Of a stretch of DNA of 11,441 nucleotides, positions 1 through 11,389 are shown piece after piece. Position 1 is the stretch's first letter, and each line of letters begins with the position of its first letter. The notes beneath the pieces were generated by a model. It searched no databases. It saw only the letters and a list, made by a program, of their open reading frames with translations, and had not been told where the DNA came from. This DNA is from a virus (lineage: Duplodnaviria > Heunggongvirae > Uroviricota > Caudoviricetes), in IMG/VR virus record IMGVR_UViG_3300023487_000022; one strand, written 5' to 3'. The translations under genes were made by a program, and so were the position numbers.

Positions 1-40
1 TGATGTCACGCTGAAAATGCCGGCCTTTGAATGGGTTCAT
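1..40 (-). CDS. tnpA: IS26 transposase, first 13 codons only (cut by window edge)
   Basis: ATG at 40..38 on the minus strand, reading MNPFKGRHFQRDI, 38 bp inside the terminal IR. Confidence 0.85.
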   Translation of the reverse strand, partial: MNPFKGRHFQRDI

Positions 41-103
41 GTGCAGCTCCATCAGTAAAAGGGGATGATAAGTTTATCACCACCGACTATTTGCAACAGT
101 GCC
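1..103 (-). mobile_element. IS26 (IS6 family) terminal 103 bp; the element continues beyond the window start
   Basis: Reverse complement of 90-103 is GGCACTGTTGCAAA, the IS26 terminal inverted repeat. Reverse complement of 1-40 is ATGAACCCATTCAAAGGCCGGCATTTTCAGCGTGACATCA, the start of the IS26 transposase gene. Recognised from memory of the IS26 sequence, not from a search. Confidence 0.88.
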
Positions 104-152
104 CTTTTCTCTCCTGGCCTTCAGCAAGACCCAGCACCAATGAAGTATTCAT
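104..152 (-). pseudogene. 5' fragment of a gene truncated by the IS26 insertion
   Basis: Minus-strand ATG at 152..150 preceded by GGAG 5 nt upstream. It reads MNTSLVLGLAEGQERK and runs straight into the IS26 IR at 103. It sits directly downstream of a copy of the Y-type upstream module, as the intact ORF at 313-642 does. Confidence 0.4.
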
Positions 153-2588: not shown

Positions 2589-3158
2589 TTAGTTGTTCAG
2601 ATAGGCATCCGGAACGCGCACATAAAAGTTTCTTTCGCCGGTCAGTTCCAGAGTAACGTTTATGTCGTTGCCGTTATCCAGCGTAGCCGTCGCTTTATAG
2701 AACTTGTCCGTCACCTTGTCCTGAATTGTCACCTTCATACATTTCGGCGCTGTGGTTCCGTTATTCTCTTTCAGAATGGTCGTTACGAGAGGACAAGCCG
2801 CTTCTTCAAGAGCAACCTCTTCCTGGTGTGGGATACCGATGAAGATGTTACCAGCAAGCAACGCGACGATTACGATAAAAGGAAGTCGACTGCCTTTTGT
2901 AACGGTGGCACGTTTCCAGAGATAGACCGGAAGGAGAAATACTCCCCACAGGATGGCCGGTGGTTCATACCCTGCATCAGACAATGCCATTCTGTCAGCC
3001 ACCAGAAAGCCGAGTCCAGCGACTCCACCTATCACTATTGCATAATTCAAATACTCATCTGGCGGTGCTCCAAAGAAGAGAGGCAGTAAAGCTAGAAGCC
3101 ACGCATAAGCATTATTCAGAGGTTTTGTTTGTTGGTTCTGGGTTTCCATCACATCCAT
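2589..3158 (-). CDS. Hypothetical membrane protein (189 aa), hydrophobic N-terminal half and soluble C-terminal domain
   Basis: ORF track; hydrophobic stretches (WLLALLPLFF, AIVIGGVAGLGFLV, ILWGVFLLPVYLW, FIVIVALLAGNIFIGI). Start uncertain between ATG 3158 and ATG 3149; RBS weak. The overlapping plus-strand ORF 2436-3089 has a non-protein-like composition. Confidence 0.65.
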   Translation of the reverse strand: MDVMETQNQQTKPLNNAYAWLLALLPLFFGAPPDEYLNYAIVIGGVAGLGFLVADRMALSDAGYEPPAILWGVFLLPVYLWKRATVTKGSRLPFIVIVALLAGNIFIGIPHQEEVALEEAACPLVTTILKENNGTTAPKCMKVTIQDKVTDKFYKATATLDNGNDINVTLELTGERNFYVRVPDAYLNN

Positions 3159-4327: not shown

Positions 4328-4531
4328 ATGAAGACCTATGATCGCAACCGTAACGCTATCACTACCGGCAGCCGAGTGATGGTGGCAACGAATGGTGCAA
4401 CGGGAGTCATCAAGGAAATCTGCGGAGAAGGCAAATCAGAAGAACAATTACGCCGCTCTGACTGCGTGTCTATCGAAGGTGTGGAAGGTCTATTCTGCCC
4501 AATGGATTTGGTTCGCCTGGGGTTCCATTAA
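4328..4531 (+). CDS. Hypothetical small protein (67 aa); candidate regulator
   Basis: ATG at 4328 with AGGAGG SD 5 nt upstream. It is the only plus-strand gene in the island and is transcribed divergently from the palindrome at 4229-4243. Confidence 0.72.
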   Translation: MKTYDRNRNAITTGSRVMVATNGATGVIKEICGEGKSEEQLRRSDCVSIEGVEGLFCPMDLVRLGFH

Positions 4532-4558
4532 TTTCACCATCTATAAAACAAATTGTTT

Positions 4559-4579
4559 AAGGCCACAACTAGTGGCCTT
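4559..4579. terminator. GC-rich inverted repeat AAGGCCAC-AACTA-GTGGCCTT between convergent genes; possible bidirectional terminator
   Basis: 8 bp stem, 5 nt loop. The T-rich tract on the minus-strand side is offset by about 6 nt, so terminator function is uncertain. Confidence 0.4.
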
Positions 4580-4586
4580 ATCTGGC

Positions 4587-5285
4587 TTACGGAACAGCGG
4601 TAATCAGATCGCAAATGCCTGTTTTAGTTAAATCACTATTCAGCTTCTGAAAATTGGCATTCAGCATTGCGGTATGTATTCGATTCTCAAGTTCAAAGAA
4701 GAGACCGATCTTGCCCTCTTTGGCTGCCACCTTCTTCCAAATATTCACCTGGTCATCTGCGATACGACTTGCGCAGGTGAACAAGAACGAACTCCCTCTG
4801 GGAAGGGATGTCGTGCTGTAGTATTCACCGTCAACTTCAATATACTTAGCTCGGAATGACTCCAGAGTTAGCTTTTTACCGCTCTCAGCCTGCTTTGTGT
4901 CTGCCTTGCTTGTCTTTTCCTGAACTTCAGGCTGTTTCTGCACAGGCTTTGGTGTCTCATTGACCACCGCAGTGCTGGCCGAACCATCCAAACTCTTGAG
5001 GCCATTAATTTGGATTAGATAAGCCAACTCCAGAGCCTTATCACCAGTGAGTTTTCCACGCATACTTACCCATTGACGCTGAACCGTCTTTAAGGCGTCT
5101 GCGTCCCCCGGGTTTGCTTTGAGTGCGTTGGAATAGGTAGAGCTAAGTTGTTCGTCTAATTTTGACAGGCGTTCGTTATCGCAGATTTTGTGTTCGATTT
5201 CTGCCGAAGCCTTTTGGCAGTCAAAGCTGGCTGCAAATACAGCCGGCGATGCCACCAACAATGATGCCAGTAGGATATTTTTCAT
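4587..5285 (-). CDS. Secreted protein with DUF1311 (LprI-like) N-terminal domain (232 aa)
   Basis: ATG at 5285 with GGAG upstream. Signal peptide MKNILLASLLVASPAVFA with an AXA-type cleavage site, followed by the Cys/Leu pattern FDCQKASAEIEHKICDNERLSKLDEQLSSTYSNALKA...QRQWVSMRG, which matches DUF1311 from memory. C-terminal domain unassigned. Confidence 0.78.
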   Translation of the reverse strand: MKNILLASLLVASPAVFAASFDCQKASAEIEHKICDNERLSKLDEQLSSTYSNALKANPGDADALKTVQRQWVSMRGKLTGDKALELAYLIQINGLKSLDGSASTAVVNETPKPVQKQPEVQEKTSKADTKQAESGKKLTLESFRAKYIEVDGEYYSTTSLPRGSSFLFTCASRIADDQVNIWKKVAAKEGKIGLFFELENRIHTAMLNANFQKLNSDLTKTGICDLITAVP

Positions 5286-5323
5286 ATTCACTCCATAAAT
5301 ATAAAAGCGCCTGACTATAGCAC

Positions 5324-5539
5324 TTAACCAATTGCTTCTCTCATCTGATTGTGAAGCTCTTTCAGCCCATCACGTACCGCGTTCATGATACGTTCCAGGG
5401 ATTGGTATCTGGGGTTTGGCACTGTTGGCCAACCGGCATACCACGGATCGTCACCAAACAGACTCAGCAGTTCGTTACCGACACCGAAACAGCAGCAACT
5501 TTCTTTTACGTCATCAGCGTTTTCTGCCTCGTCCCACAT
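5324..5539 (-). CDS. Hypothetical protein (71 aa), possibly the C-terminal remnant of a longer disrupted gene
   Basis: ORF track; in the same frame as 5774-6505 but separated from it by stops. The frame is open upstream of the ATG as far as 5626. Confidence 0.4.
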   Translation of the reverse strand: MWDEAENADDVKESCCCFGVGNELLSLFGDDPWYAGWPTVPNPRYQSLERIMNAVRDGLKELHNQMREAIG

Positions 5540-5773
5540 ATTGCGGGCCTGCTCTGCGTCGATTTCTCTCTCTCCCTGCGCAACTTTATGATTTCGGATT
5601 TGACGAAAAGCAGGTTTGCGTCGTTGTCATCGTCGACCGTACTGAAGTGGCACACTGAATTTGGCCGTCTGTAATGGGCAGATCCGGCAACTGTTTAAAA
5701 ACATCCATCTGCTCATGGATACGCAGAAACCACCTTGCCAGCTCCATCTGCTCACCGCGGGTGAGGAGATTAT

Positions 5774-6505
5774 TCAGCGGGGACTTAACAAAAGCGGAGA
5801 CTCGCTCGACAAGCCGGCCAGTGAACCAACATCCCCCCAATTCTGGTGTGTCAGCGCCCCGATACTTACCACTCCAGGCAGCACTTCTTTGTGGTTGTGG
5901 TAGTGCCCGGACAACAATAAACGGAAGCCGATATCTTTCAGTTCCTGTGCGTCGATGCCGACATCGGGCATGGTGGGGATCGCTTTGTTGATTGAGGTAT
6001 GTACAACAACATCATGGTTGTCACCATCCAGCCCGGAACGCAGCGTTTTGAGATCGCTGATAAGTTCTGCGTAGTTATTACGCCAGCTAATCAGATGGAC
6101 GGTTACGTCGCCCATTTTGATGGAATGAGGACGTTTGCCGCAGACGATTTCCACACCGATTGAGCGCAGAGAGGCTGCTGCATTGGCGCTGTATACGGAA
6201 TCGTTGGTTTCGAGGTCGTGGTTGCCAGCCAGCATTACCACCTTGAGACCCAACTCTTTGATGATCCACTCGTAAGTTTCGGTCACGAAATGCAGAACGG
6301 AAGGTGATATAGCACCGCGAACATGGAAGGTATCACCAGCTACCAGCATGTTCTTACAGCCAGCAGCTTTCATCGCTTTGGCCGCCTCCTTCGTAGCGTC
6401 CAGTTGGATCTCCAGCCGAGAGTTAAGCCCGTCAGCGTTTGTTGTCGCAAAAGCATCCCAACGATGATAATGGGGATCTGATATTACCCCGTATGGCAAT
6501 GTCAT
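5774..6505 (-). CDS. Calcineurin-like metallophosphoesterase (243 aa)
   Basis: ATG at 6505 with AAGGA upstream. Ordered motifs ISDPHYH, GDTFHVRG, GNHD and GHYHNH match the metallophosphatase signature (D-x-H, GD-x-x-D/H-R-G, GNH[DE], GH-x-H). Confidence 0.75.
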   Translation of the reverse strand: MTLPYGVISDPHYHRWDAFATTNADGLNSRLEIQLDATKEAAKAMKAAGCKNMLVAGDTFHVRGAISPSVLHFVTETYEWIIKELGLKVVMLAGNHDLETNDSVYSANAAASLRSIGVEIVCGKRPHSIKMGDVTVHLISWRNNYAELISDLKTLRSGLDGDNHDVVVHTSINKAIPTMPDVGIDAQELKDIGFRLLLSGHYHNHKEVLPGVVSIGALTHQNWGDVGSLAGLSSESPLLLSPR

Positions 6506-6848
6506 GTGTCTTTTCCTTTGTGGTTATTTTGATACAAATTCTAAGCGTGCATAAGAGGCGTACAACCCAGACAACACGGCACACAAAAGAATATAAAGGC
6601 ACATGATAATAACAAAAAAATAAGTAAGTAAATACCTATCAGATAGGGCAGCAACGATTTCTAAACGTCACAAGCAATTTTATGAGAGCAGTCATTTACT
6701 GATGACAAGAAATGAAAAAGGAGAACGGACGGTGAAGTTGTGAGATGACATTTACGGCGTTTGCGTGCGTCGTCTTCAAACGCATCCGTCGGCCACAGTT
6801 TCTGCTCTTGAATAAAATTCACTCATGCATTAATCCCTAAAGCTCTCA

Positions 6849-6875
6849 GTGTCTTTCTAAGACACCATATTTTAT
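6849..6875 (+). terminator. Hairpin GTGTCTT-TCT-AAGACAC followed by CATATTTTAT; candidate plus-strand rho-independent terminator
   Basis: Perfect 7 bp stem, 3 nt loop, T-rich tail on the plus strand only; lies just after a 31-codon plus-strand ORF (6745-6840). Confidence 0.45.
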
Positions 6876-6901
6876 GCCCGGTAAAAAGCATGAGTTTGCC
6901 T

Positions 6902-7546
6902 TTAAAACGTCTCTGAGGGCTTCTGACGCGCTCTGCTAATGTCTATTACCCCAGCTTTTGGACGAGGGTCTACAAGATTCAACTCTTCAGCACTGTGATA
7001 CTCCGTGTCGAACTCCCGATCGACATGGCGAATGTAAATGGCTGTCAGAAGGCTGTTATCATTCAGAAAGTGTCCGTAAGATTTGCGAATTACTTCGCCA
7101 ACCTTCTCAATCTTCTCTCCGCCCATGCAGAGATGGTTAAATCGGCTGTGTTTCCGCAGCATTTCATCCACCGGGCCTGAGTAGACCTTATCAACTCTCC
7201 CGAACCGGATGATATTTCCGGTATCAGCTTCAACCAGACAAACGAGTTTGCCAGGTTCGACACGATCTCGCCAAGTGACACCAGAGCGCAGTGTGTTGAA
7301 GTAGGGAGCATCCAATCCGATGATCGGTTTACGAAATGCTAGTAGTGGCACGTAACGTATGCAGCTGTTTAGGTGGAAATGCGCACCGGCGTCGTGGAGT
7401 TTAAGCCGGGTTTCGTTAATCGGGCATTTCGAAGCAATGCCGCAAAGGTCGCAGAGCAACTTCTGTTTGTTCAGACTAGTGTTTGATTCAATGGTGTAGG
7501 AGCCATCTTCAAGACGGCGAACCCAGCGCGTGCGTTTAAGATCCAT
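6902..7546 (-). CDS. Hypothetical protein (214 aa) with a CDLCGIASKC Cys cluster
   Basis: ORF track, ATG at 7546, weak RBS. No family recognised. Confidence 0.6.
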   Translation of the reverse strand: MDLKRTRWVRRLEDGSYTIESNTSLNKQKLLCDLCGIASKCPINETRLKLHDAGAHFHLNSCIRYVPLLAFRKPIIGLDAPYFNTLRSGVTWRDRVEPGKLVCLVEADTGNIIRFGRVDKVYSGPVDEMLRKHSRFNHLCMGGEKIEKVGEVIRKSYGHFLNDNSLLTAIYIRHVDREFDTEYHSAEELNLVDPRPKAGVIDISRARQKPSETF

Positions 7547-9953: not shown

Positions 9954-10166
9954 TCAGTGGATTTTCTTCAGCAGACCCCAGAGTGTCCCGGCCTTCGTTG
10001 CGAGCTTACCTGTTTCCGGATCGTACATGTGCCATTCACGTCGCTGGTGGACAATATACCCATCTTCACGTTCCAGTCGTTCCAGTACGCCGGACTGCTT
10101 GAACCCTTTGGCACGCCAGTAGCCGCTTGTTTTTTCGATTTCCAGACCTGTCAGTGTAACCGCCAT
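9954..10166 (-). CDS. Hypothetical small protein (70 aa), translationally coupled
   Basis: ATG at 10166..10164 overlaps the TGA of the upstream gene (TGATG); the track start at 10169 is a TTG. Product MAVTLTGLEIEKTSGYWRAKGF... Confidence 0.62.
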   Translation of the reverse strand: MAVTLTGLEIEKTSGYWRAKGFKQSGVLERLEREDGYIVHQRREWHMYDPETGKLATKAGTLWGLLKKIH

Positions 10167-10501
10167 CAACTAATCTCCTTGCAGTCATCGAAAAGGTAGC
10201 TGTCGTTCTTCGCGTGAACGCCGTATACATCACCCGATTTGTTGTAAACGAATCTATCTTTACCTACGCCAGATAGTTCGCCGTTACGTTTAGTGAGAAA
10301 CGGGGAAGACAGGACGCGATCATCGCGTACCACATAAAACTGTTCGCCACGGTCCACAACCATCGCGCCGTAATTAGCTTTAACGACGTTGCGGATCAGG
10401 CCGTTTTTCGCTTCGACCACAAACATTTCGCACTCATAGACATGTGTGTCCGCAAAGACGGGGAGAGTGAGCAGCGCCAGTACCAGGGCTGTTTTCTTCA
10501 T
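10166..10501 (-). CDS. Hypothetical exported protein with Sec signal peptide (111 aa)
   Basis: MKKTALVLALLTLPVFA then DTHVYEC, consistent with an AXA cleavage site. ATG at 10501 overlaps the stop of the upstream small ORF (ATGA). Confidence 0.65.
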   Translation of the reverse strand: MKKTALVLALLTLPVFADTHVYECEMFVVEAKNGLIRNVVKANYGAMVVDRGEQFYVVRDDRVLSSPFLTKRNGELSGVGKDRFVYNKSGDVYGVHAKNDSYLFDDCKEIS

Positions 10502-10992: not shown

Positions 10993-11172
10993 GTGCTTTC
11001 TCCTTGTTGGTAAGTACTTATCTATCTTAATGCGCGCTATAAGGCGCACAATCATTGTGTTCAGGCTGGTGGAAAGAACTTCTCCAGCGTGTGGTTGATA
11101 GCCTTATCAATGTGCATCAGGTGCCAGACGACCATATCTTTGCTTCCAATGCCGCGAGTGTAGATGAAGTGG

Positions 11173-11389
11173 TCAACAAAAACTGGCCACCGAGTTAGAT
11201 TTTTTCCAGTATCGATTTTCCGATTCATTTGGGGGTAATCCACCGTTATATTCGTGCGGTCTTAGTGCGCTGTAATATCCAACGATATAGTCCGTTATGG
11301 CGTGAGCTGCCTCGCTGAAGCTTACGTAACCCACCACCGGCATCCATTCGTTCTTCAGACTCCTGAAGAAGCGTTCCATTGGGCTGTTG
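11173..11389 (-). pseudogene. C-terminal fragment of an IS3-family transposase (OrfB tail), truncated upstream
   Basis: Reads ...SVNSPMERFFRSLKNEW...YYSALRPHEYNGGLPPNESE, resembling the conserved IS3-family DDE-domain tail (DNAxxESFFxxLKxE ... RxHxxLGxxxPxEFE). An in-frame stop at 11390-11392 sits just upstream of the conserved motif, and no other frame continues the homology. Confidence 0.55.

What the first reader, a model, noticed from the sequence alone, without database searches (positions are those of the whole stretch)
4587..5285. Plasmid-borne secreted DUF1311 (LprI-like) protein with an unassigned C-terminal domain
A clear Sec signal peptide is followed by the Cys-x-x-A...I-C...L-x-x-L-D...Y...QRxW pattern that I recognise as DUF1311, the N-terminal domain of lysozyme-inhibitor LprI-like proteins. 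The C-terminal roughly 100 residues are unassigned. A periplasmic DUF1311 protein on a plasmid could be an immunity or inhibitor protein against a periplasm-acting enzyme.
Basis: partly seen in the sequence, partly recalled or inferred. Interest (0 to 1): 0.4.

Follow-up and report, generated by a model that had tools for sequence, protein, structure and literature searches.

The report
Phage-borne secreted DUF1311 two-domain protein
This is a real, well-conserved gene that temperate phages (SSU5-type phage-plasmids and lambda-like prophages) carry as a self-contained add-on; it makes a protein exported to the bacterial periplasm, with a known-type helical front half and a rare, undescribed back half, and its job, probably blocking a cell-wall-cutting enzyme, has never been tested.

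Summary

"Plasmid-borne" needs correcting. The replicon is an SSU5/pHCM2-type phage-plasmid, and the same cassette (conserved 5' leader, ORF, terminator) also sits in lambdoid prophages. Two-domain relatives occur in T4-like phages. It is not housekeeping: 124 of 5426 E. coli genomes carry it, always in phage DNA.

The inhibitor or immunity role remains an inference. The MliC domain that inhibits lysozyme in LprI is absent. There is no similarity to Etsi4, the only DUF1311 immunity protein shown to rescue toxicity that I found. No toxin gene lies nearby.

Verdict: already annotated by name, function unknown, a modest new variant of a known kind. Interest is about 0.35.

The parts
4587..5285 (-). 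Complete CDS of 232 aa plus stop codon. Annotated in identical plasmids as 'lysozyme inhibitor LprI family protein' (WP_023135690.1).
   Evidence: Full-length match to PHROG 4675, E 1e-89. Whole-gene dN/dS 0.11-0.21 in divergent pairs.
5232..5285 (-). Sec (signal peptidase I type) signal peptide, aa 1-18, with predicted cleavage VFA|AS.
   Evidence: Sequence inspection. Low-confidence N-terminus in the AF2 model. The mature N-terminus ASFDC is invariant across phage relatives.
4995..5231 (-). N-module, aa 19-97. A compact two-cysteine (C23, C35) DUF1311/LprI-type helical domain.
4872..4994 (-). Disordered Pro/Lys/Gln/Glu-rich linker, aa 98-138. Variable in length and sequence.
   Evidence: pLDDT below 30. 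Indels and low conservation. dN/dS 0.3-1.2.
4590..4871 (-). Unassigned C-terminal domain, aa 139-232: short helix, beta-hairpin (148-157), three long helices, and invariant C171 and C225 (probable disulfide).
   Evidence: pLDDT 84-95 over aa 141-220, falling to 64 and 42 in the last 12 residues. C171 invariant and C225 present wherever the C-terminus is retained, across distant relatives including T4-like phages. dN/dS 0.03-0.08. Only about 10 true relatives among 1.84e9 representatives. No Pfam or PDB match.
5291..5294 (-). GGAG ribosome-binding site, 5 nt upstream of the ATG.
   Evidence: Invariant in all six aligned contexts.
5314..5322 (-). TGCTATAGT, an extended -10-like element in the conserved 5' leader. 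Candidate own promoter; this is an inference.
   Evidence: TGnTATAGT is conserved in phage-plasmid and lambdoid contexts, while the coding region has dS 0.4-1.1. The two-hexamer scanner did not call it. No transcript data.
4545..4580 (-). Intrinsic terminator: 9-bp GC-rich hairpin plus T-run. It lies between the gene and the convergent ydfZ.
   Evidence: dG -15.3 kcal/mol, z -3.7, 0 of 200 shuffles as stable. Conserved in all contexts, and homology between contexts ends just after it.

Best explanation
The gene is a self-contained phage accessory cassette (5' leader with RBS and a probable extended -10 promoter, ORF, intrinsic terminator). SSU5-type phage-plasmids and lambdoid prophages of Enterobacteriaceae both carry it.

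Its product is exported by Sec and released as a soluble periplasmic protein of about 214 aa. It has a two-cysteine DUF1311-type helical N-module, a roughly 40-residue flexible spacer, and a rare, strongly conserved, disulfide-stabilised C-terminal domain (beta-hairpin plus three-helix bundle).

Shown here: the anatomy, the export signal, the phage carriage, the selection pattern and the fold class.

Inferred: it acts as a stoichiometric binder or inhibitor of a periplasm-acting, lysozyme-like peptidoglycan hydrolase. Candidate targets are the wall-piercing enzyme of a superinfecting phage or a T6SS or bacteriocin wall-degrading effector. This would protect the cell that carries or is infected by the phage. 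It would be a T4-Spackle-like or orphan-immunity-like role reached with unrelated domains.

By analogy with LprI (DUF1311 plus MliC), the DUF1311 module is the common scaffold or docking part and the C-terminal domain supplies the specific activity.
For: - Real, expressed-type gene: RBS, terminator and purifying selection.
- Signal peptide without a lipobox.
- DUF1311 by HMM and by fold.
- Phage carriage: PHROG 4675; SSU5_101; a lambdoid prophage between xis and ea22; 34 IMG/VR contigs.
- Cassette boundaries are conserved across unrelated phage backbones. The P0055 homolog is also a stand-alone unit.
- There is no conserved partner gene, so the protein acts alone.
- The same SP-ASFDC-DUF1311-linker design, with a homologous or an exchanged C-domain, occurs in T4-like phages.
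- The C-domain is the most constrained part, with dN/dS 0.03-0.08.
- Class-level functional precedent: the DUF1311 protein Etsi4 rescues periplasmic toxicity of the wall-targeting T6SS effector Etse4 (PMC12981562). LprI-domain proteins are encoded next to lysozyme-like or transglycosylase T6SS effectors in Pantoea and Salmonella Dublin (PMC9796082, PMC8867033).
Against: - No functional data exist for this protein or any close relative.
- There is no detectable sequence similarity to Etsi4.
- The N-module lacks the second cysteine pair and the last third of the Pfam model.
- The MliC domain is absent.
- ScwA, a periplasmic DUF1311 protein, does not confer lysozyme resistance (PMC7933661).
- Very strong purifying selection on the C-domain is not the signature of an arms race with variable toxins.
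- Klebsiella phage VAC36 carries both Spackle and a two-domain DUF1311 gene, which argues against simple redundancy with Spackle.
- The promoter assignment is only a conserved motif.
Confidence: 0.4

Rival explanations
1. ScwA-like modulator of the host's own cell-wall enzymes. The periplasmic protein binds or stabilises endogenous lytic transglycosylases or endopeptidases (as ScwA controls MltD levels) and so tunes wall remodelling for the phage, for example to prepare or delay lysis or to aid DNA entry and exit.
For: ScwA is the best-studied enterobacterial DUF1311 protein. It is soluble, periplasmic and disulfide-bonded, it alters MltD and other hydrolase levels, and overproduction causes lysis (PMC7933661). 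The very low dN/dS of the C-domain fits a conserved host target. The gene occurs in lytic T4-like phages as well as temperate ones.
Against: ScwA's architecture differs: its DUF1311 is C-terminal, the protein is 275 aa, and it has no equivalent of this C-domain. No ScwA-like protein turned up among the sequence-search hits. ScwA's mechanism is itself unresolved.
Confidence: 0.2
2. Superinfection-exclusion or envelope-modifying factor whose target is not a peptidoglycan hydrolase, for example a receptor, porin, Tol/Ton component or the DNA-injection machinery. The DUF1311 module serves as a generic periplasmic docking or oligomerisation module, and the interchangeable C-domain is the effector.
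For: The N-module is conserved across phage families while the C-domain is swapped; RB49/kaaroe has an unrelated beta-rich C-domain. The long Pro/Lys/Glu spacer recalls periplasm-spanning linkers (the comparison is from my own knowledge). The cassette is moron-like, as is typical of exclusion genes.
Against: There is no membrane anchor or lipobox. There is no similarity to known exclusion proteins in PADLOC or PHROG functional categories. No target can be named.
Confidence: 0.2
3. Lysis-timing regulator that restrains the phage's own exported endolysin, or senses superinfection, in the periplasm (antiholin- or RI-like logic).
For: The protein is periplasmic and phage-encoded, and it occurs in lytic T4-like phages. 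In the lambdoid context it lies in the pL early-left operon region, which is transcribed during lytic growth (lambda biology is from my own knowledge).
Against: The gene is never adjacent to lysis genes in the contexts examined. It is present in phages with unrelated backbones, though their lysis genes were not examined. It is an accessory gene, seen in about 127-199 plasmids against 498 that match the SbcD-like/phrog_2105 backbone segment (window 5774-7546).
Confidence: 0.1
4. A classical lysozyme inhibitor, as the database name implies. It would protect the lysogen against animal c-type lysozyme in the way MliC, PliC, Ivy or LprI do.
For: The PGAP name and the Pfam name. Chromosomal carriers are often gut or avian isolates (enrichment not tested).
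Against: The name derives from the domain, not from an assay. In LprI the MliC domain is credited with inhibition, and it is absent here (PMC7933661). ScwA, which has DUF1311 only, gave no lysozyme protection (PMC7933661). There is no lipoprotein anchor. The C-domain is helical, unlike the beta-rich MliC/PliC, Ivy and PliG folds (those folds are from my own knowledge).
Confidence: 0.07

Closest known systems
Pfam PF07007 (DUF1311 / 'Lysozyme inhibitor LprI' N-terminal domain); solved examples 3gi7 (Pseudomonas putida PP0307) and 6ar7 (Burkholderia thailandensis)
   Different: Only profile positions 1-70 of 106 are matched. The second cysteine pair seen in 3gi7 and Etsi4 is missing. hhalign against the single 3gi7 sequence is not significant. 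An extra linker and a C-terminal domain are attached.
Mycobacterium tuberculosis LprI (Rv1541c)
   Same: An N-terminal DUF1311 domain followed by a second, functional C-terminal domain. It is exported to the cell envelope.
   Different: LprI is a lipoprotein, and its second domain is MliC (PF09864), the part credited with lysozyme inhibition (PMC7933661 citing Sethi 2016). Here there is no lipobox and no MliC. The C-domain is an unrelated helical domain.
[not shown]
   Same: Sec-exported periplasmic DUF1311 proteins. Etsi4 neutralises a periplasm-acting wall-targeting effector (PMC12981562). The others are encoded next to lysozyme-like or transglycosylase effectors (PMC8867033, PMC9796082).
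   Different: Those are single-domain proteins of about 146-149 aa. Etsi4 has four cysteines and sits in a T6SS cluster beside its effector. The window protein shows no detectable similarity to Etsi4, has two domains, is phage-borne and has no effector neighbour.
ScwA (SL1344_0490) of Salmonella Typhimurium
   Same: Soluble, periplasmic, disulfide-bonded DUF1311 protein of horizontally acquired origin, linked to peptidoglycan enzyme homeostasis (PMC7933661).
   Different: In ScwA the DUF1311 domain is C-terminal, the protein is 275 aa and chromosomal, and it has no lysozyme-resistance phenotype. It did not appear among the sequence-search hits.
T4 Spackle (Sp), the periplasmic inhibitor of the gp5 tail lysozyme
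   Same: Functional analogy only: a small phage-encoded, Sec-exported periplasmic protein that blocks a wall-piercing lysozyme of superinfecting phages (my own knowledge).
PHROG 4675 and the DUF1311 two-domain proteins of T4-like phages (Aeromonas ZPAH1 orf288, Klebsiella VAC36 'LprI domain-containing protein', RB49 ORF260c/Q7Y3G7)
   Same: Full-length member of PHROG 4675 (E 1e-89). The design is shared: signal peptide, ASFDC DUF1311 module, charged linker, C-domain. The ZPAH1 C-domain is homologous (hhalign 75%, E 2.5e-5).
   Different: All are of unknown function. The VAC36 C-domain is only partly alignable, the D3 one is not significant, and the RB49/kaaroe one is unrelated and beta-rich.

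Membership tests
Pfam PF07007 DUF1311/LprI domain | HMM score at or above the curated gathering cutoff | tested here: met
   24.9 bits against a cutoff of 22, E 2.7e-5. The isolated N-module scores 27.6 bits. Eight of 8 phage N-modules and 11 of 15 family members match.
Pfam PF07007 DUF1311/LprI domain | Match over the whole domain model | tested here: not met
   Only profile positions 1-70 (or 1-68) of 106 are aligned. The last third is replaced by a shorter helix.
Pfam PF07007 DUF1311/LprI domain | Four conserved cysteines (two pairs), as in 3gi7 and Etsi4 | tested here: not met
   The N-module has only C23 and C35. 3gi7 and Etsi4 each show four. That four cysteines are family-wide is partly my recollection of the Pfam description.
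Pfam PF07007 DUF1311/LprI domain | Fold similarity to a solved DUF1311 structure | tested here: met
   [not shown]
LprI-type lysozyme inhibitor (M. tuberculosis LprI) | MliC/PliC domain (PF09864) that carries the inhibitory activity | tested here: not met
   A Pfam scan at E up to 10 lists only PF07007. The C-domain is predicted to be helical.
LprI-type lysozyme inhibitor (M. tuberculosis LprI) | Lipoprotein signal (lipobox with +1 Cys) | tested here: not met
   The signal ends VFA|ASFDC. The Cys is at +5 and there is no L-x-x-C lipobox (sequence inspection).
LprI-type lysozyme inhibitor (M. tuberculosis LprI) | Inhibition of lysozyme activity | not testable with these tools
   This needs purified protein or lysozyme/EDTA survival assays.
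T6SS immunity protein of the DUF1311 type (Etsi4-like) | Encoded next to its cognate effector in a T6SS or effector island | tested here: not met
   The neighbours are phage genes in every context examined. No effector, Hcp, VgrG or PAAR gene is present.
T6SS immunity protein of the DUF1311 type (Etsi4-like) | Sequence relationship to a validated member | tested here: not met
   BLASTP E 38 and hhalign probability 0.3% against Etsi4.
T6SS immunity protein of the DUF1311 type (Etsi4-like) | Neutralises a periplasmic effector | not testable with these tools
   This needs co-expression or competition assays.
Phage moron (autonomous accessory transcription unit) | The same cassette inserted in unrelated phage backbones with sharp homology boundaries | tested here: met
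   SSU5-type and lambdoid contexts share only about 45-70 nt of leader, the ORF and the terminator. The lambdoid site lies between xis and ea22.
Phage moron (autonomous accessory transcription unit) | Own terminator | tested here: met
   The hairpin has dG -15.3 kcal/mol and z -3.7, and it is conserved in all contexts.
Phage moron (autonomous accessory transcription unit) | Own promoter, with expression from the prophage state | tested here: inconclusive
   An invariant TGnTATAGT extended -10-like motif lies 21 nt upstream of the ATG-proximal leader, but the scanner made no two-hexamer call and there are no transcript data.
PHROG 4675 | Full-length profile match | tested here: met
   E 1e-89, residues 1-231 matching profile 1-234/235. 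The function category is unknown.
T4 Spackle family | Sequence or profile similarity | tested here: not met
   hhalign probability 0.2% for the C-domain against the VAC36 Spackle.

The most novel reading that the evidence does not exclude
The SP-ASFDC-DUF1311 module may be a shared periplasmic 'delivery or docking' module that very different phages (SSU5-type phage-plasmids, lambdoid prophages, T4-like lytic phages) fuse through a flexible spacer to interchangeable effector domains. On this reading, the C-terminal domain here (beta-hairpin plus disulfide-locked three-helix bundle, about ten relatives in 1.84 billion representative proteins) would be a previously undescribed effector fold. It would mediate superinfection exclusion or immunity by binding a conserved envelope enzyme.
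Probability: 0.2. Interest if true: 0.6.

Novelty: new variant of a known kind. Interest (0 to 1): 0.35.

Why it matters
If the protein is a periplasmic inhibitor, it would be a phage-carried protection factor against wall-degrading enzymes of competing phages or bacteria. It spreads on phage-plasmids that are common in clinical Enterobacter, Salmonella, Citrobacter and E. coli. It would also give the first function to a rare C-terminal domain and to the widespread DUF1311 proteins of T4-like phages. It would correct a misleading database name as well: "lysozyme inhibitor" is assigned from a domain that has not itself been shown to inhibit lysozyme. If the protein does nothing of the kind, it remains one more conserved phage accessory protein of unknown function.

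Tried and rejected
- First AF2 model, built from 14 close homologs, was too poor to use (pLDDT 48). A second model that added distant homologs was usable.
- Foldseek against the PDB found nothing below E 1. The afdb50 library was unavailable, so the isolated C-domain could not be compared with AlphaFold DB.
- PDB sequence searches with the protein, the family profile and the C-domain profile returned only designed repeat proteins and chance hits.
- PADLOC gave no defence-system match for the gene or eight neighbours. NCBIfam gave only sub-threshold hits, the best being A1S_1983 at E 0.003 and 17 bits against a cutoff of 150.
- The idea that the C-domain is a degenerate second DUF1311 repeat was rejected (hhalign 0.4%).
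- The idea that the C-domain is Spackle-like was rejected.
- Direct homology to Etsi4 was rejected.
- The hairpin upstream of the RBS, flagged as terminator-like, is not more stable than shuffles (z -0.7).
- A CRISPR spacer reported to match a 'lysozyme inhibitor LprI' gene in APEC (PMC9732669) does not match this gene or any fetched locus.
- An early impression that SSU5 lacks the gene (nucleotide search) was wrong. tblastn finds SSU5_101 at 87% identity.
- The search for related loci with the C-domain alignment failed for lack of conserved stretches. Viral-contig scans with P0060 and P0061 found nothing.
- Rfam found no RNA family in the window.

Full report
**1. What is at the coordinates**

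The finding covers a minus-strand ORF, 4587-5285. The ATG is at 5283-5285. It is preceded by GGAG (5291-5294) with a 5-nt spacer. The TAA at 4587-4589 is followed by a 9-bp GC-rich hairpin and a T-run (4545-4580). Folded as RNA, this hairpin has dG -15.3 kcal/mol and z -3.7 against shuffles.

The 232-aa product begins MKNILLASLLVASPAVFA|ASFDC. This is a standard signal peptidase I signal with no lipobox, read from the sequence because no predictor was available. Identical copies in RefSeq plasmids are annotated 'lysozyme inhibitor LprI family protein' or 'DUF1311 domain-containing protein'.

**2. Is the DUF1311 call right?**

Yes, but it is marginal and partial.

- Pfam PF07007 scores 24.9 bits against a gathering cutoff of 22 (E 2.7e-5). 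It aligns residues 23-78 to profile positions 1-70 of 106.
- Eleven of 15 family members match the model, as do all eight isolated N-modules from this family and from T4-like phage relatives (best E 6e-7).
- An AlphaFold2 model built on an alignment that included distant homologs is confident for both domains. In 10-residue blocks, pLDDT is 81-90 over aa 21-90 and 84-95 over aa 141-220, dropping to 64 and 42 in the last 12 residues. It is below 30 for the linker, aa 101-135.

The domain is a compact variant. It keeps the first cysteine pair (C23, C35) and the L-D, Y and Q-R-x-W motifs. It lacks the second cysteine pair seen in 3gi7 and in Etsi4.

**3. Architecture and selection**

Alignments show four parts:

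- a signal peptide (aa 1-18);
- the N-module (aa 19-97);
- a Pro/Lys/Gln/Glu-rich linker that varies in length and sequence (aa 98-138);
- a conserved C-terminal domain (aa 139-232).

The C-domain model has a short helix, a beta-hairpin (148-157) and three long helices (166-189, 193-217, 219-230). C171 is invariant in every relative, and C225 is present wherever the C-terminus is retained, including T4-like phage proteins at 15-18% identity. This points to a disulfide.

I computed Nei-Gojobori dN/dS over six gene copies:

| Region | dN/dS |
|---|---|
| C-domain | 0.03-0.08 |
| N-module | 0.10-0.20 |
| Linker | 0.3-1.2 |
| Whole gene (divergent pairs) | 0.11-0.21 |

The unassigned C-domain is thus the most constrained part of a clearly functional protein.

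The C-domain is also very rare. An exhaustive HMMER scan of 1.84 billion representative proteins found 12 hits. Two of these are repetitive false positives. The true distant relatives are P0055, P0057, P0059 (Yersinia), P0060 and P0061.

The C-domain matches nothing else that I tested:

- no Pfam, NCBIfam or PADLOC model;
- no PDB sequence;
- not the N-module;
- not T4 Spackle.

**4. Where the gene lives**

The window is part of an SSU5/pHCM2-type phage-plasmid.

- The 1.3-kb region matches 199 PLSDB plasmids, of which 192 are non-mobilizable. They come from Enterobacter, Escherichia, Salmonella and Citrobacter, and the listed and sampled examples are mostly about 105-115 kb.
- These plasmids carry terminase and other phage genes. 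The window shares its RepA/SbcD-like region with Salmonella phage SSU5.
- SSU5 itself encodes the protein (SSU5_101, 87% identity), with the same convergent ydfZ neighbour.
- The gene is accessory rather than core. About 127-199 plasmids carry it, against 498 that match an adjacent backbone segment.

The same gene, at 83% nucleotide identity, sits in lambdoid phage ev099 and in E. coli prophages integrated next to ybhC. There it lies between a small ORF next to xis and ea22, in the early-left accessory region.

Among 5426 complete E. coli genomes, 124 carry it, with 108 chromosomal and 17 plasmid copies. Among 185,579 species-representative genomes only one locus was found, a 109-kb Kluyvera contig. 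IMG/VR holds 34 loci, which fall into the same two groups.

The protein is a full-length member of PHROG 4675, whose function is unknown.

**5. A mobile cassette**

I aligned the flanks from phage-plasmid and lambdoid contexts.

- Homology begins about 45-70 nt upstream of the ATG.
- It ends immediately after the terminator.
- The leader is almost invariant although synonymous divergence in the ORF is 0.4-1.1.
- The leader contains TGnTATAGT (window 5314-5322, minus strand), an extended -10-like element, and the GGAG site.

I read this as a moron-type unit with its own terminator and probably its own promoter. The promoter is an inference: the two-hexamer scanner did not call it and there are no transcript data.

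In this particular window the upstream ORF (5324-5539) is only the last 71 codons of the 183-aa SSU5_100 homolog. The upstream operon is therefore broken here.

The distant homolog P0055 is also a stand-alone unit, with its own intergenic region and hairpin. No partner gene is conserved across contexts.

**6. Wider family**

tblastn and Foldseek against viral models find 200-250-aa proteins in T4-like phages of Aeromonas, Klebsiella and Escherichia, including RB49 ORF260c. They share a signal peptide, an invariant ASFDC mature N-terminus, the DUF1311 module and a charged linker.

Their C-domains differ in how they relate to this one:

| Phage | Relationship of C-domain | Evidence |
|---|---|---|
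| Aeromonas ZPAH1 | homologous | hhalign 75%, E 2.5e-5 over 80 columns |
| Klebsiella VAC36 | partly alignable | hhalign 45% |
| Aeromonas D3 | not significant | |
| RB49/kaaroe | unrelated, beta-rich | |

The N-module therefore behaves as a common module joined to exchangeable C-domains. LprI itself pairs DUF1311 with MliC in the same way.

**7. Function**

Nothing has been tested for this protein. At the class level:

- Etsi4, a four-cysteine, single-domain DUF1311 protein, rescues the periplasmic toxicity of the wall-targeting T6SS effector Etse4 (PMC12981562).
- LprI-domain proteins lie beside lysozyme-like or transglycosylase effectors in Salmonella Dublin and Pantoea (PMC8867033, PMC9796082, PMC12135965).
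- ScwA, a periplasmic DUF1311 protein, controls MltD levels but gives no lysozyme resistance. Its authors attribute lysozyme inhibition in LprI to the MliC domain (PMC7933661).

I located Etsi4 in EDL933 and found no detectable similarity to the window protein.

My best reading, at confidence about 0.4, is a soluble periplasmic binder or inhibitor of a lysozyme-like wall hydrolase. It would protect the phage-carrying cell in a Spackle-like or orphan-immunity-like way, with the C-domain as the specific part. Rivals:

- a ScwA-like modulator of host wall enzymes (0.2);
- an exclusion or envelope factor with a non-hydrolase target (0.2);
- a lysis-timing regulator (0.1);
- a classical animal-lysozyme inhibitor, as the database name suggests (0.07).

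The strong purifying selection on the C-domain argues for a conserved target rather than an arms race.

**8. Verdict**

The gene is already annotated by name and belongs to an existing PHROG. What is new is modest: the two-cysteine DUF1311 variant, the rare and undescribed C-domain, the cassette mobility between phage types, and the modular family in T4-like phages. I rate it a new variant of a known kind, with interest 0.35.

Noticed in passing
window 1-104 and 11156-11388: The window is bounded by insertion-sequence fragments: an IS26 end at the left and an IS911/IS3-family fragment at the right. An ORF at 11173-11379 (-) reads like the C-terminal end of a transposase.
   Followed up: partly
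window 5324-5539 (-) and 5540-5810: The 71-aa ORF upstream of the target is only the C-terminal 71 residues of the 183-aa SSU5_100 / Phage_phiTE_072 homolog (83% identity). In SSU5 the target lies about 25 kb from the SbcD-like/RepA region, whereas here they are adjacent, so this plasmid lineage has a deletion or rearrangement junction. Sister plasmids have an IS3 inserted nearby.
   Followed up: partly
window 4328-4531 (+): A YdfZ-family gene (PF14001, E 1.8e-30; 'putative selenium delivery protein') lies convergent to the target and shares the hairpin terminator. It accompanies the target in most SSU5-type elements but not in the P0040 Enterobacter lineage or in lambdoid prophages.
   Followed up: partly
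window 4590-5231 (-): For the same sequence pairs, synonymous divergence of the C-domain (dS 0.6-1.9) is two to three times that of the N-module (dS 0.3-0.9). This suggests intragenic mosaicism or recombination near the linker.
   Followed up: no
window 10166-10501 (-): A 111-aa ORF has a Sec-like signal peptide (MKKTALVLALLTLPVFA) and no Pfam match. It may be another small exported protein of the phage-plasmid.
   Followed up: no
window 2589-3158 (-): A 189-aa ORF (phrog_12486, unknown function) has hydrophobic segments that suggest a membrane protein. It has no Pfam match.
   Followed up: no
E. coli chromosomal hits (e.g. L009): About ten of the 26 chromosomal (lambdoid prophage) carriers listed are chicken or avian isolates. 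This could reflect clonal lineages. Enrichment was not tested.
   Followed up: no
L010 3974-4576 (Aeromonas phage ZPAH1): The two-domain homolog in this T4-like phage is inserted, together with a small ORF, on the opposite strand between baseplate wedge genes.
   Followed up: partly
L011 1041-1355 and 3435-4187 (Klebsiella phage vB_KpnM-VAC36): This phage encodes both a Spackle homolog and a two-domain DUF1311 protein about 2 kb apart in the early region, so the two are unlikely to be redundant.
   Followed up: partly
L007 709-1671 and L003 226-3478: Distant C-domain relatives sit in other mobile contexts. P0060 is a lipoprotein version without the ASFDC module; it lies next to a TM2-domain gene and a T5orf172 gene. 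P0059 (Yersinia enterocolitica) lies next to two serine recombinases at a contig end.
   Followed up: no
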